From contig OX597816.1 in assembly GCA_951406725.2 (NCBI GenBank), forward strand, positions 28,706,001 to 28,770,000: a DNA stretch of 64,000 nucleotides, in the 5' to 3' direction. Made by a program: the position numbers and the translations under genes. This DNA comes from Octopus vulgaris. Taxonomy: Eukaryota. Below the pieces are notes generated by a model. The model did not search any database. It was not told the origin of the DNA and worked only from the letters and a program-made list of their open reading frames with translations. Below are positions 20,933-36,530 of this stretch, in pieces. Positions within the stretch are counted from its first letter, which is position 1; every line of letters begins with the position of its first letter.

Positions 20933-21230
20933 ATATATAGAAAATAGTAAAAAGTGAAAAAACTACAGAAGGCTTGTTTTAAAAGGTTAAAAAATATATT
21001 TGAGTCATTATGTCAGCAGAATGTTATAAAATTTTTTCATAACGAAGTCATAACACGATGTTTTGAGAAATTTGAAAAGTTAACAAGAAACCGGTAATTT
21101 CTTCAAAAACTATGTCACTGTATGAAAACATTTTATAACATTCTTCTGACATAATGACTCAAATATATTTTTTAACCTTTTAAAACAAGCCTTCTGTAGT
21201 TTTTATACTTTTATACTATTTTATATATAT
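20933..21230. repeat. Long inverted repeat (about 100-bp arms) flanked by (TA)n with an HHR-like motif in the loop
   Basis: About 20933-21040 is the reverse complement of about 21122-21230; loop 21067-21101 reads gaaat TTGAAAA gttaacaa GAAACCGGTA atttc. Confidence 0.85.
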
Positions 21231-24200
21231 ATATATATATATATATATATATATATATATGCGCGCACGTATTTAGTTGTGTTTTTATAGACACGTACAA
21301 TAAAATATGGAGTCGATCAGTGAGGCGGAACAAATATTGCAACACATGCTCCATATCAGATGCTTCTACTTGTTACATACTTGACATTTCCGTCTCTTTA
21401 GAACATATTCTTGCCTAATGTTTATGCAAATACTTTCTAACTATGTTACACTTTCTAGCCTATGATGTAGTATGTGTTTATATGCAATTAGTTCATATCT
21501 TATACTCTTCTATTTTCTTTATGTAAAATCTTCTTCACCTTAAATTTTGGAGTATTGCATTAGTGGGAGTCCCTTCTCCAGTTTCATGTTTACAACGCTT
21601 GTTGATGTTCTTACCTCATGCCAACATAAATTTCTGCTCTTTGTGCGCATGACAGTTTTAATCTGTACTTCTTTTATCTGTCCCTTTTCTTATTCTTCTA
21701 TCTCACTCTTCGTTTAATTCACATGATACTATTAATCTGCATCTTTACAACAACTTATCCCCGACTTTGCGTCCTCCTTCAAAACTCCTCTACTGCAATC
21801 CTTACAAAAGCGTTTTCCCCACGTCTTGCCATGCGCTAACACATCTACACTACTCTTAGTCTATTTCTGTTCTTATTGCGCTTTCTACTACTGCATTATC
21901 AGCATCTATCTCTCTATCGCTCTCTTACGTATCTATCTGCTTCTGCGCTCTATTTTCTTTGTATTTCGCCCAGGAGAAATAAAAATGACTGAAACAGAAT
22001 GTTCACAAACAATCAGCTCATACCACTCAGTATTTTAGTTGCAATTCTTTTTTTATCAATTTTAGCTGGCTGAGAGTATCATTAGTTTCTTTGGATTCCG
22101 GATCTTACTTAAAGAAAACAGAGTTTAGTGGAAATTTCTCGTCTTGATGATTGAAAGCACGCTGCACTCTCTTGACATCAAATAACAAAACGGAGAAGAC
22201 CGGACGTTCAATTATTGATCATATTGCGTCTCGGTATCATTTTCAGCCTTAGTGAAATATTCCTTTCTTTGAAGATCAGTTCATACAATAATAACACTAA
22301 TGTTGTATTGTGACTAGAGTTAATTGAAGGAACTTCCATCGATCAACTAGCTTTTACCTAAAATCGATTATAATTGATCTCAGTATGGATGTCATCACAT
22401 CCAATTATTCTAATACGGTTGAAAGAAAATGCTGCGAACATGATTTCTTAAATAATGAGTGATCTAGATTTGGAAGTGTAAGGATGAAAATTTCAGGGCT
22501 ATTCTCTATTTTTAAAAATGTAGTTCTGAATCCCATTTCTTAATACATTGAACAATAGGCAAGAAAGTTAATTGATAGCCTTTTTCTCTCCGTATTTATA
22601 GACTTCTATCTTTTGCTTACAAAGAAAAAAATCTCCCACTTCTATATTACTGTCGAAAGTAGACTATTTGCGACGGCGAGATAACTTTTCTAGTTTCGAC
22701 ATCATACAGTCAGTGACGCTTTGATGTCGTAAGAGCTTGACCTGCAAAATTTCCATCTCAGTCAATGTAAGATAGAATGTGTTCGGATTACTCAGTTTTT
22801 GTAAACAATGCAACAACGAAGTACATGATAACTGCGAGGTCATTGAACGTACATCATCTTTGCACAGTCCTCAAGAAGTAGAAGCCTAAAACCACGTAAA
22901 ATCGACTATATTCTCTCGGAAAATGAATGATCTTTCATGTTGCAATGCTAGATGTCCTTAGAAAACCTTGGATAGTCACTGTTTGGATATATTTGAGCAC
23001 ATATTTGTTCGATCTGAATTGACCTGAGATTAAGTGTCAATAACATCATCATTTTATCGCTTTTAGCGCTTTGCTCTATTCCAGTTTTAGCGCTATGCTC
23101 GATTCCAGTTTCTTCTGTTCACCTCCTACCCTCTTAATAAATCCAATGAGGTGACCTCAGCTTAAATTATATTGTCAGCTCGATCCACCAACATCAATAC
23201 GCAGGACTAGAGAGAGCATATAGGTATTCTCAATGATGTTAAAATTAGCAGCCAATCTTTCTTTTCCTCGCGTTCTAAAATCGTAAAAGGAAAATGTATT
23301 GTGAGAAATATCATAAATGCATAAAGAGGGCTGTCAAAAATGGAAAGGCTGATTTAGGGCAATCATATCACAACGACGATGACCACCGCCATTACAATCA
23401 CTAGCACCACCACCACTACCACTACGAACACTTCAACATCCACCACCACTGCCACTACCACCGCCACCATCATCAATAAAATCTACAATAAAATAATGAA
23501 GTGCCATTTCTAACAGATCAAACGTCACAAATTCAATAGAGAACTAGAAAACTTAAATGAATGTCATTATCTGCTAATAGAAATCACAGAATTATAGTAT
23601 ACAGATTTAGTATATAACGCATTCCATGCATTGAAAGCTAATGGTGAATATCGTAAAGTTCCAGATGAGCTAAGACCACCAACCGTTTTATATTCTAGGT
23701 ATAGAAGCTAATTTACTTTTATACCCAGTACTCCGAAGAGTATAATAAAGAGAAAACTTAAACGTCATAATCTTGCAATTCTACCTAAAATTACCAAATG
23801 GTACATCCTAGCATTCGAAGAAAGGAAGTGGAGTTGATGTTCTATCGATTGTGCCACGCCCAAAACATCTTATACAGAAATATCATTGTGATTGATTTTG
23901 ATTAAAGAATAAAGTATAAATACAAGCAGTTTGAACTGAGTCATAGTATATAACTGATACTATATTTATTATAGTTTCTTCATTCTTCAAACTATAACCA
24001 GCAAATTTATTCCCGGGTTAGTCAATATTAAAAGAATGAAATACTGTCTGTTATAACACACATACATGCATTGATTTCTATCACTATGAGCACAAAGATC
24101 CAATTGTTCTGGAAGCGTATAACGGTTATAACGACACTCGAAGGTGACAAATTCTATATTTCATTAACCCCAGAAGGTTGAAAGACTATGTTGAATTTGC

Positions 24201-24845
24201 ATGAATTCATGTATTATAAAGCAGTTTGTAAAACGTATTTTAAGCCTATCATCATATACATAGTAATCTAAATGTAATCGAATCACTTTTACAAGCTAGA
24301 CCACATTAAAACCAATTGAAATTATCGGTCATTGATAATGAAACAATGAGAAAATAACAAAATCAACGAAACAATATTTACTTATTTATTCCTATTTCGC
24401 TGTTTTATGCATACACAATGATACAGTCTTATTAAAAGGAAGAATCGATCGAAAATTGATTGAGATAACACAATAAGACAATACATGATTTACAGATAAG
24501 CACAAAACAAAGAAGTTGTGATCAGCTGTTAGTGCTAAGTCCTTTCTGATTTCATCTCACATATATACAACAGTAGAGTCGCTGTATGTGCAATATATGG
24601 TAGCAATAACATTCACAGTTGCACTTTACATTCTGCTGGGACAAAGGTCAATTTACATTTTGTATTCAATGAAACAAGATGGAATAGCACGGGATTGTTT
24701 TACTTTCTGGTACAGATCTACTGAACAGAGCTGATCTAGCGTTAAAGATCATGATATCGCCTCCAACACCACAACTGATTCCAGTGATCCGCCGCCACAC
24801 GCCACTGCCTTCAGGACAGCAGAGAATCAATTATAATAATGGCGA

Positions 24846-25140
24846 TAGTAGTAGTAATAGTAGTAGTAGTAGTAGTAGTGGTAGTAGTTGTAGTAGTAGT
24901 AGTAGTAGTAGTGGTGGTGGTAGTAGTAGTAGTGGTAGTAGTAGTAGTGGTGGTTGTAGTAGTAGTAGTAGTGGTAGTAGTAGTAGTAGTAGTAGTAGTA
25001 GTAGTAGTATAACATGAATGATATAGTAGTAGTTGCAGCAGTAGTAGCAACAGCAACAGCAGCAGCAGTAGTGGTAGTAGTAGTAGTAGTAGTAGTAGTA
25101 GTAGTAGTAGTAGTAGTAGTAGTAATAGTAGTAATAGTAG
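24846..25140. repeat. (TAG)n/(TGG)n compound microsatellite
   Basis: Direct observation. Confidence 0.95.
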
Positions 25141-34869: not shown

Positions 34870-34898
34870 ATAATATTTATTATTATTAAATAATAATA

Positions 34899-35145
34899 AA
34901 TGTGCCTGTTAAAGCCTAGCCAGGCTCATGGGCCTGGTTTCCCGGTTTCTACGGCGTATGTGTTCCCCAGCTGGACAGGACGCCAGTCCATCGCAGCATT
35001 ACTCATTTTTGCCAGCTGAGTGGACTGGAGCAACGTGAAATGAAGTGTTTTGCTCAAAAATATAACGCGTCGCCCGGTCCAGGAATTGAAACCACAATCT
35101 TACGATCATGGTGCTGACACCCTAACCACTAAGCCACACGCCTCC
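34899..35145 (-). mobile_element. SINE family 3 (tRNA head, CORE-like and V-like domain)
   Basis: Minus strand ggaggcgtgtggcttagtggttaggg...gtttcaattcc; ttgagcaaaacactt; ctgcgatggactggcgtcctgtccag. Confidence 0.8.
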
Positions 35146-35149
35146 ATAT

Positions 35150-36530
35150 ATATATGAAAAATCAACTCAGGATAGAAAACGCTAAAATAATTTTACAAAG
35201 AACATTTCAGTACCGGTTTCAGTCATTGAGACCTTTGCAACTGTAACAATTAAATAATTAAATTTAGAAAAATTAAAAGAAAAGTTTTTAAAAGAAAATT
35301 TGTAAAGTGTTCAAATATAAGTGGCATTTTCTTTGTTTCTGCCTTTCTCTGTCTCTCTTGTTCGAGGTAAGTTCGAGATCGTTGTGAATTCTTGGTAGAA
35401 GAAGAAGAAGAAGAAGAAGAAGAAGAAGAAGAAGAAGAAGAAGAAAAAGAAGAAGGAGGAGGAGGAGAAGGGGGGGATGAAGACGAAGAATTTAGGAGTG
35501 CCTTGATTGTAGTATTTTGAATGTTCAGTGGAGGCTAGCAGTTGCTGTTCAATTCATGAAAATATTTCTATTGAAAGTTTTGTTTATAGAATTTGCGTAG
35601 GTGTTATACTAAAAAGTATTAGTGATAAAGTTATGAAGGAGAAGGAAGAAGAAGAAGAAGAAGAAGAAGTAGAAGAAGATGAGGAGGATGATGATGATAA
35701 TGATGATGATGACGACGACGACGAGGATAATGATGATGATGATGAAGAAGAAGAAGAAGAAGAAGAAGAAGAAGAAGAAGAAGAAGAAGAAGAAGAAGAA
35801 GAAGAAGAAGAAAGAGAAGGGAGAATATGAATGAGTGAAAGTAGTGAGGTGCTGGTTGACTTAAAGTTGGCACGCTAGGGATTATAGCAGTGATTGGGGC
35901 TGTGTTTGTTTTATTCTAAGGCCGAGGTAGATATATCGTTTGTCGTAGACGCGTTCAGAAGGGGCCTGTATTTTGTAATAAAGAGAGATTCTTTACTAAT
36001 TCGTTGGCTCCAGATTGTATCGTCCCTGAATTGGTAGGGGGGAAAAGTCCTGAAGCTTGGAGTTTTGTTGTTGGCGCAAATATCTATGTTTTGACTGAAT
36101 ACTATTTTTCTGTTTTGGGGAATATATATATATATATATATATATAGGCAAATTTGTTGTTGAAAATGCAACTAAATTTGAAAAACTTGTAATTGTTTAA
36201 AATAAATTTATTTACATGTATACCAAATTAGTTTCAACAATATTTTTTGCTTATCAATGGTAAATATTTAGAATTATGAATTAGAAACAAACACGATTCA
36301 ATGTTAACAAGTTTAAATGTTCATGACAGTCAATAATATAAAAACTTTGCATTAACTTGTTTTTTAAGGCTGGTTGATTCTCTTAAAGGGTCAATTTGTT
36401 GTATTTGCTGAAGTTCGGTTGTGATCGGAGGTAAAATTTCATTGGTCTAGAGATAGGGGACGTCGGCAACTGTTGTTTATATGGTGTCGTAGTATGTTGA
36501 TTCGGAGTTTCGGTTTCGAAAACTGGGTGG
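35150..36530 (-). mobile_element. PLE 3' fragment (GIY-YIG C-terminus plus pseudo-LTR), interrupted by (GAA)n/(GAT)n expansions
   Basis: ORF 35911-36171 PQNRKIVFSQNIDICA...ISKESLFITKYRPLLN resembles ORF 10864-11106; HHR-like motif downstream at 35208-35243. Confidence 0.7.
35208..35243 (-). ncRNA. Minimal hammerhead-like motif, U3-A8 variant
   Basis: Minus strand: cag TTGCAAA ggtc-tcaat-gact GAAAC CG GTA ctg. Confidence 0.5.

What the first reader, a model, noticed from the sequence alone, without database searches (positions are those of the whole stretch)
21067..35243. Recurrent U3-A8 (UUGAAAA) hammerhead-like cores in three unrelated repeats
Seen: 21067-21101(+) gaaat TTGAAAA..GAAACCGGTA atttc; 32196-32231(-) TTGAAAA g gttgc/gcaac GAAAATTT; 35208-35243(-) cag TTGCAAA ggtc/gact GAAACCGGTA ctg. 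Flanks differ but all keep U3-A8, GAAA and a palindromic stem III. With the C3-G8 (39778) and G3-C8 (20746) copies, three of the four possible Watson-Crick 3-8 pairs occur in one 64-kb window. Inference: octopus PLE families may have diversified the HHR core widely. Caveats: stem II is minimal at 21067 and stem I is only 2 bp at 32196.
Basis: partly seen in the sequence, partly recalled or inferred. Interest (0 to 1): 0.75.

Follow-up and report, generated by a model that had tools for sequence, protein, structure and literature searches.

The report
Four core pairings in Penelope hammerheads
The three motifs are worn copies of a small, likely self-cutting RNA (hammerhead) at the tail of Penelope-type jumping genes; their U-A core pair is already published, but related families in the same genome carry G-C and A-U at that spot, so the pair is probably being restored again and again by selection, though cutting is untested.

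Summary
The motifs are real. All three are minimal type I hammerheads about 100-160 nt from the 3' ends of high-copy Penelope-like retroelements. They are not unrelated: 21067 and 35208 belong to sister families, and 32196 is sister to the G3-C8 family. U3-A8 in Penelope hammerheads is published (PMC4209133). In 1.2 Mb of evenly sampled genome, with positions 3 and 8 left free, 14 of 15 hits were Watson-Crick; shuffles gave 0.16 and 0.24. New here: the fourth pair, A3-U8, is the norm in two Penelope families. In one, subfamilies of about 91% identity are fully separated only at positions 3 and 8 (G-C versus A-U). Against a strict rule: a retrozyme subfamily spread with a C3·A8 mismatch (25 of 64 hits). 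Copies do not pile up at the cut site, and the window copies are damaged. Cleavage is untested. The scan had already noted U3-A8 and G3-C8 on other DNA of this genome; I found no note naming A3-U8. A key paper (Lünse 2017) was unavailable.

The parts
21072..21096 (+). Family A hammerhead core N3-N17 (U3-A8, ACCGGU palindrome, cut triplet GUA); this copy has C11.1>A, which breaks the 2-bp stem II
21036..21222 (+). 5'-truncated 3' end of PLE family A; in longer copies the motif lies about 130 nt after the GIY-YIG ORF (3' boundary approximate)
20898..21041 (-). Inverted 5'-truncated copy of the family A end (head-to-head PLE insertion; lacks the core; left boundary approximate)
32198..32228 (-). 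Family B hammerhead core (U3-A8, extra G between 9 and 10.1, 5-bp stem II, AAUU palindrome, triplet UUU)
32099..32385 (-). Family B 3' end (32239>32099) plus inverted arm (32250-32385); longer copies carry a broken RT/GIY-YIG ORF about 37-50% identical to family D's
35211..35240 (-). Family C hammerhead core (U3-A8, ACCGGU palindrome, triplet GUA); private A6C in this copy
35144..36129 (-). 3' part of PLE family C, with a GIY-YIG fragment at 36120-35914 upstream of the hammerhead
20753..20788 (+). Family D hammerhead core (G3-C8, extra G, 5-bp stem II, AAUAUU palindrome) in a short 3' end (about 20731-20882); young family, 30 of 30 fetched copies identical over the motif
39782..39808 (-). Family E canonical C3-G8 minimal hammerhead in a repeat of about 220 nt (39885>39661); no ORF linked in 30 loci
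10520..13124 (-). Decayed near-full-length PLE (family W, same clade as A and C). The family motif is U3-A8, but this copy has a 13-nt deletion that removes the UUGAAAA strand (G12 at 10638); boundaries approximate
37898..37924 (-). Second family E copy, C3-G8 with U4C

Best explanation
The motifs are minimal type I hammerheads at the 3' ends of Penelope-like retrotransposons, likely cutting the element's RNA as dimers, and the 3-8 core pair is probably kept as a Watson-Crick pair by selection on the active master elements while its identity drifts among all four pairs. Shown: position behind RT/GIY-YIG ORFs, 5'-truncated and inverted insertions next to (TA)n, conserved UGAN-N-A and GAAA strands in 3' ends whose cores do not align between families, palindromic helix III, and families with C-G, U-A, G-C and A-U. 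Inferred from published PLE hammerheads: two copies in a tandem or partial-tandem transcript pair through the palindrome, N3-N8 positions the 2'-OH of nucleotide 8, and the RNA is cut 3' of N17, slowly and probably with help from the element's protein. Inferred from the subfamilies: the pair switches stepwise through mismatched states that are tolerated for a time. The three window copies are dead insertions; A and C carry disabling private changes.
For: ORF linkage: A, C, B, D, F and G; Pfam RVT_1 (one hit above cut-off) and GIY-YIG (two hits below cut-off) in 4 of 9 proteins scanned. Homology ends 100-160 nt after the core, 5' ends are ragged, and inverted copies occur in 8/30 A, 21/30 B, 6/30 C, 9/30 D and 4/30 E loci (some of these matches are unrelated repeats). 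Free 3/8 descriptor on 1.2 Mb: 6 C-G, 4 G-C, 4 U-A, 1 non-WC. Family F: 16 G-C, 13 A-U, 1 A-G of 30, and positions 3 and 8 are the only fully diagnostic columns. Exact genome scan of F: 62 A-U, 8 G-C, 6 mismatched of 76, control 0; G-C expected 1.4 under independence, Fisher p 1e-7 on copies, which reflect a single event. Family G: A3-U8 in 20 of 20, only 2 non-A3 singles genome-wide. All 11 families or subfamilies anchored to an ORF have a WC majority (B, makes 12). Stem II covaries in an A relative. Literature: min-HHR features and U3-A8 in PLEs; C3G/G8C rescues a PLE hammerhead and cleavage needs the PLE protein.
Against: No cleavage data. A subfamily of a ~360-nt retrozyme spread with C3·A8 (25 of 64 hits at 18 places), so a WC pair is not strictly needed for mobility. 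32 of the first 100 listed (of 337) S3 hits in the ACCGGU class are non-WC; 26 look like scattered single mutants and 6 belong to that subfamily. Among D copies changed at both positions, 9 of 24 are WC against 8.0 expected, so there is no compensation at copy level, as expected for dead copies. Only 10 D copies lack the intact G12-A13 segment and at most 3 join at the cut site. In A and C, U3 can pair with A17 and extend stem I in the predicted fold, like the inhibitory C3-G17 pair. Stem II is only 2-3 bp in A, F and G, and the AAUU palindrome of B has no stable self-duplex (+2.2 kcal/mol). G-C to A-U is two transitions, the commonest double change. Families are related, so independent switches are few (about 4-5). 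In Anolis, cleavage was not needed for insertion in vitro.
Confidence: 0.75

Rival explanations
1. The motif keeps a hammerhead-like fold as a binding or initiation element for the PLE reverse transcriptase, and cleavage is vestigial or absent.
For: No pile-up of D copies at the cut site; in Anolis, unprocessed RNA is the dominant template and no reads end at the cut; a mismatched retrozyme subfamily is mobile; low in vitro rates.
Against: The 3-8 pair forms in the catalytic conformation and is repeatedly restored. Position 17 is non-G in the majority of all eight families folded. Helix III is palindromic in each.
Confidence: 0.15
2. The pair types are neutral drift in a decaying motif: mutation bias (G>A, C>T) in a few master copies made WC-looking doubles by chance.
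For: G-C to A-U is two transitions; few independent events; a C·A subfamily exists; deep nodes of the tree have support of only 49-65.
Against: The core is intact across families whose 3' ends do not align over the core. U-A versus G-C and U-A versus A-U need two transversions each. No ORF-anchored family has a single-site change at 3 or 8. The chance that 3 and 8 are both among 2-6 diagnostic columns of about 126 is 1e-4 to 2e-3.
Confidence: 0.08
3. Chance matches in AT-rich sequence.
For: The descriptor does give false hits: a 20-copy G-C cluster lies antisense inside the F ORF, and 116 singletons of a looser scan cover all 16 pair types.
Against: Shuffle controls; fixed position behind PLE ORFs; 376-1,563 first-look candidates per family.
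Confidence: 0.02

Closest known systems
Minimal type I hammerheads (min-HHR) of metazoan PLEs, including the U3-A8 variant of Schistosoma mansoni Cercyon elements (Cervera and de la Pena 2014, PMC4209133; read: main text parts 1-2 of 4, supplement file 2 part 2 of 3 plus a term search; file 1 not searchable)
   Same: Type I topology, position in the terminal repeat, palindromic helix III, G10.1-C11.1 and an extra base between 9 and 10.1 (B, D, E), U3-A8 with the same UUGAAAA strand, mostly single truncated copies and inverted pairs.
   Different: In the part of their alignment that I read, only C-G, U-A and one U·G occur. Here G3-C8 (D, F1) and A3-U8 (F2, G) are family majorities. A, F and G have 2-3-bp stems II with no extra base; C has G/A10.1-U11.1.
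Natural U3-A8 hammerheads (Perreault et al. 2011, PMC3088659; read: section 8 and passages)
   Same: Natural covariation of the 3-8 pair; stem II of 1-2 bp occurs; A6C gives low activity.
   Different: The section names only U3-A8, not purine-3 pairs.
Poseidon PLE hammerhead of Anolis (PMC11167929; read: passages)
   Same: PLE hammerhead whose cleavage depends on the 3-8 pair; C3G/G8C partly rescues.
   Different: G3-C8 was engineered there, not natural. The ORFs here carry the CX2-5CxxC linker described for Neptune/Nematis, not Penelope/Poseidon.
Engineered 3-8 swaps in type III hammerheads (Przybilski and Hammann 2007; not held, recalled; title seen in a reference list)
   Same: As I recall, any WC pair at 3-8 kept some activity, with a context-dependent preference for pyrimidine-3.
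   Different: Laboratory mutants of plant and viroid ribozymes; here the four pairs are natural.
Small dimeric hammerhead variants of PLEs (Lünse et al. 2017, PMC5785218; not held; seen only as cited in PMC6765202)
   Same: PLE-associated hammerheads with reduced helix III that cleave as dimers.
   Different: Unknown: its large alignment could already hold G3-C8 or A3-U8 examples.

Membership tests
Minimal type I hammerhead of PLEs | Core strands N3-UGAN-N8-A and GAAA, A15.1-U16.1, H17 | tested here: met
   Family majorities; window copy C fails at A6
Minimal type I hammerhead of PLEs | Watson-Crick pair between 3 and 8 | tested here: met
   exception in a retrozyme subfamily
Minimal type I hammerhead of PLEs | Helices I and II around the core | tested here: met
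   weak helix II in A (pair probability under 0.1), weak helix I in B, C and E in the monomer fold
Minimal type I hammerhead of PLEs | Palindromic helix III that allows a dimer | tested here: met
   ACCGGU (-8.3 kcal/mol self-duplex), AAUU (+2.2), AAUAUU (-0.2), ACGU (-1.7)
Minimal type I hammerhead of PLEs | G10.1-C11.1 and an extra base between 9 and 10.1 | tested here: inconclusive
   Both met in B, D, E; no extra base in A, F, G; C reads R10.1-U11.1 or an extra base on both sides
Minimal type I hammerhead of PLEs | Self-cleavage 3' of N17 | not testable with these tools
   Only contigs were available; genomic junction test on D negative
EN+ Penelope-like element | [quoted passage not shown] | tested here: met
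   A, B, C, D, F, G, W; E has no linked ORF in 30 loci
EN+ Penelope-like element | 5' truncation, inverted truncated copies, (TA)n neighbourhood | tested here: met
EN+ Penelope-like element | Full-length ORF flanked by two pLTRs | not tested
   No intact two-pLTR copy of A, B or C was sought
Neptune/Nematis clades | CX2-5CxxC motif before GIY-YIG; placement in a reference RT tree | tested here: inconclusive
   Motif present in A, C, D and B ORFs (definition); no reference sequences in the tree
Non-LTR retrozyme | Non-coding tandem monomers of about 150-400 nt, each with a hammerhead | tested here: not met
   A, B, C and D continue upstream into PLE ORFs; only family H and the, 102 family show ~360-nt tandems

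The most novel reading that the evidence does not exclude
Penelope hammerheads in this genome are active ribozymes that have cycled through all four Watson-Crick pairs at the catalytic 3-8 position, including natural A3-U8 and G3-C8 cores not yet described, with mobile mismatched intermediates caught in the act. That would be evolutionary evidence that cleavage is selected in metazoan PLEs, and would mean that searches fixed on C3-G8 miss a large share of animal hammerheads.
Probability: 0.5. Interest if true: 0.62.

Novelty: new variant of a known kind. Interest (0 to 1): 0.45.

Why it matters
Whether the slow hammerheads of animal Penelope elements cut at all, and whether cutting matters, is open. 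Repeated compensatory change at a pair that forms in the catalytic conformation is a sequence-level argument that the active fold is selected. Family F gives a natural matched pair (G-C versus A-U on the same background) and the retrozyme gives a C-G, C·A, U-A series, both ready for bench tests. In the 1.2-Mb sample, 8 of 14 Watson-Crick hits were not C3-G8, so descriptors fixed on CUGANGA would undercount these motifs. The finding as originally framed (recurrent U3-A8) is ordinary.

Tried and rejected
Rfam: no hammerhead among the 150 of 238 rows listed. Expression: no RNA holder listed; contigs only, so nothing on level or ends. Cut-site junctions in D: no pile-up; not run for other families. 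Compensation among D copies: none. L152 and L151 ORFs as partners of D and E: L152 has its own C3-G8 motif; L151 is not followed by an E motif, so E stays unlinked. Apparent C3·A8 family at L268: a decayed copy of a C3-G8/U4C family. A 20-copy G-C cluster antisense in the F ORF: dropped as chance. Non-U3 variants of family H: 0. Purine-3 cores with an AACCGGUU palindrome: 0. A3-U8 in the window's family W: no, it is U3-A8. Tree: 22 rows from broken ORF pieces, no outside reference, no one-clade test; F versus G unresolved. Papers not held: Lünse 2017, Przybilski and Hammann 2007, Hammann 2012 review. Passages of PMC6155905 and PMC11014351 had nothing on 3-8 swaps. R-scape was not available.
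Full report
Observation. The three U3-A8 motifs and the two comparison motifs are present. I call them A (21072-21096 +), B (32228-32198 -), C (35240-35211 -), D (20753-20788 +, G3-C8) and E (39808-39782 -, C3-G8). Each reads as a type I hammerhead with a palindrome in place of helix III. The window holds 2-3 WC hits per descriptor setting against 0.02-0.17 in 60 block shuffles. No hammerhead was among the 150 of 238 Rfam rows listed.

Each motif is a dispersed repeat, with 784, 376, 802, 1,157 and 1,563 first-look candidates, of which 40 were scored and 30 fetched per family. 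The 3-8 state of the window copy is the family state in 30 of 30 copies for all five; these are best matches, so they lean towards agreement.

What they belong to. Homology ends about 100-160 nt after the core, 5' ends are ragged, inverted truncated copies are common and (TA)n flanks the ends. These are the features given for PLEs in PMC8557442 (passages). A lies about 130 nt behind a GIY-YIG ORF. C has its endonuclease fragment in the window at 36120-35914. D lies about 1 kb behind a different ORF. B had no ORF in its first 30 loci; walking upstream found ORF pieces about 37-50% identical to D's in 5 of 10 longer copies. A and C ORFs are 57% identical and share the ACCGGU palindrome. So the three repeats are two clades, not three unrelated families. 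E has a fairly fixed 5' end and no linked ORF.

Is the 3-8 pair constrained? In 120 evenly placed 10-kb stretches, a descriptor with 3 and 8 free gave 6 C-G, 4 G-C, 4 U-A and 1 U·C; 25 shuffles gave 0.16 WC and 0.24 non-WC. These are copies, not independent events: the G-C hits come from 2 families, the C-G hits from 2, and 2 of the U-A hits are weak. One G-C hit led to family F, a relative of A and C. Its 30 fetched copies split into 16 G3-C8, 13 A3-U8 and 1 A·G. The groups are 91% identical around the core, and positions 3 and 8 are the only fully diagnostic columns, with a few others partly linked. An exact genome scan gave 62 A-U, 8 G-C, 2 A·C, 2 G·U, 1 U·C and 1 A·G of 76, control 0; independence predicts 1.4 G-C and about 18 A·C plus G·U. 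A 79%-identical relative has G-C and the A-U group is tighter (95% versus 92%), so A-U is probably derived. A second family, G, is A3-U8 in 20 of 20 copies, with 1,381 candidates and 2 non-A3 singles genome-wide. Contigs from two other organism labels show G>A at 3 and C>T at 8 in F at similar shares (79% and 77%; 67% and 52%), without linkage, and no other letter above 5% at either position in G.

Tree. On 22 rows built from broken ORF pieces, A, C, M and W are U-A, F is G-C/A-U, and G is A-U and sister to W (support 92); deeper nodes have 49-65. That gives 3 double changes on this tree and at least 2 if F and G are sisters. B versus D adds one and the retrozyme below adds one. I ran no one-clade test and had no outside references.

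Results against. D copies changed at both positions are WC in 9 of 24 against 8.0 expected: dead copies do not compensate, so any selection acts on masters only. Of the first 100 of 337 S3 hits with ACCGGU, 45 are C-G, 23 G-C and 32 non-WC. Six of those belong to one subfamily of a ~360-nt tandem retrozyme. A scan of that subfamily (B at position 3) gave 25 C3·A8 at 18 places, 39 U3-A8 and no C-G among 64. The shared C7 and loop letters fit the order C-G, C·A, U-A. This shows how a switch can happen, and also that a mismatch does not stop mobility, at least in a non-autonomous element. Only 10 D copies lack the intact G12-A13 segment before an exact 3' part, and at most 3 join at the cut site. 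In A and C, U3 can pair with A17 in the predicted fold. A looser descriptor gave 116 singletons of all pair types and one chance 20-copy cluster that I dropped.

Mechanism. Shown: position, anatomy and covariation. From the literature: PLE min-hammerheads cut weakly as dimers (PMC4209133; PMC6765202 passages); the Anolis one needs the PLE protein, is killed by C3G or G8C and is partly rescued by both, yet insertion in vitro does not need cleavage (PMC11167929 passages); G8 is held by pairing with C3 and its 2'-OH is essential (PMC8495972 passages). Inferred: the same holds here with any WC pair. I put site-specific cleavage by the purine-3 families at about 0.65 and selection on the pair at about 0.8.

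Novelty. U3-A8 is known in PLEs and elsewhere. I found no natural G3-C8 or A3-U8 in eight library searches or in the part of the Cervera alignment I read; G3-C8 appears only as an engineered variant. Lünse 2017, Przybilski 2007 and the Hammann 2012 review were not held, and unread supplements of PMC4209133 (file 1 and parts 1 and 3 of file 2) and PMC3088659 may bear on this. Of the retrozyme preprint 10.64898/2026.07.22.740005 I read part 1 of 5. Earlier scan notes report U3-A8 many times and G3-C8 four times in this genome, none under the words A3-U8 or by sequence for family G. One note mentions four versions of a key pair in a retrozyme; I saw three states there.

Verdict. Real and mostly a known kind. 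The added value lies outside the window, in natural A3-U8 and G3-C8 families and a captured mismatch intermediate. New variant of a known kind, interest 0.45.

Noticed in passing
L284-L313 (family F), G000 genome-wide: Subfamilies with G3-C8 and A3-U8 on a near-identical background; 62 A-U and 8 G-C of 76 exact hits.
   Followed up: yes
L324-L343 (family G): Second A3-U8 PLE family, 2-bp stem II, C17, 1,381 first-look candidates.
   Followed up: yes
G000, e.g. C4:80857199-80857949 and C14:27442050-27442725: ~360-nt tandem retrozyme with C3-G8, C3·A8 and U3-A8 subfamilies.
   Followed up: partly
G000, e.g. C1:191170367 and C2:139028016: A further G3-C8 group with a short stem II resembling family G's; possibly another A-U/G-C switch.
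   Followed up: no
window 37898-37924 (-); L224, L256, L272: Family E has a U4C subfamily.
   Followed up: partly
window 2556-2672 (+); L008, L200, L221: Abundant foldback family with a C3-G8/U4C core and an odd-length helix III palindrome; the window copy is decayed.
   Followed up: partly
window 59647-60937 (+) and 61849 (+): Weak fragments of a third PLE clade (like L151), followed about 900 nt later by a decayed C3-G8/U4C motif with a long stem II.
   Followed up: partly
window 10520-13124 (-): Near-full-length decayed PLE whose hammerhead lost its first core strand by a 13-nt deletion.
   Followed up: yes
L151:1761-4625 (+): Open 955-aa PLE-like ORF with no Pfam hit and no hammerhead found by my descriptor within 1.7 kb downstream.
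   Followed up: no
window 32739-32778 (+): Hammerhead-like layout with a 6-bp stem II and ACGU palindrome but a broken core.
   Followed up: no
window 26863-26987 and 33643-33956: Long inverted repeats without a hammerhead hit.
   Followed up: no
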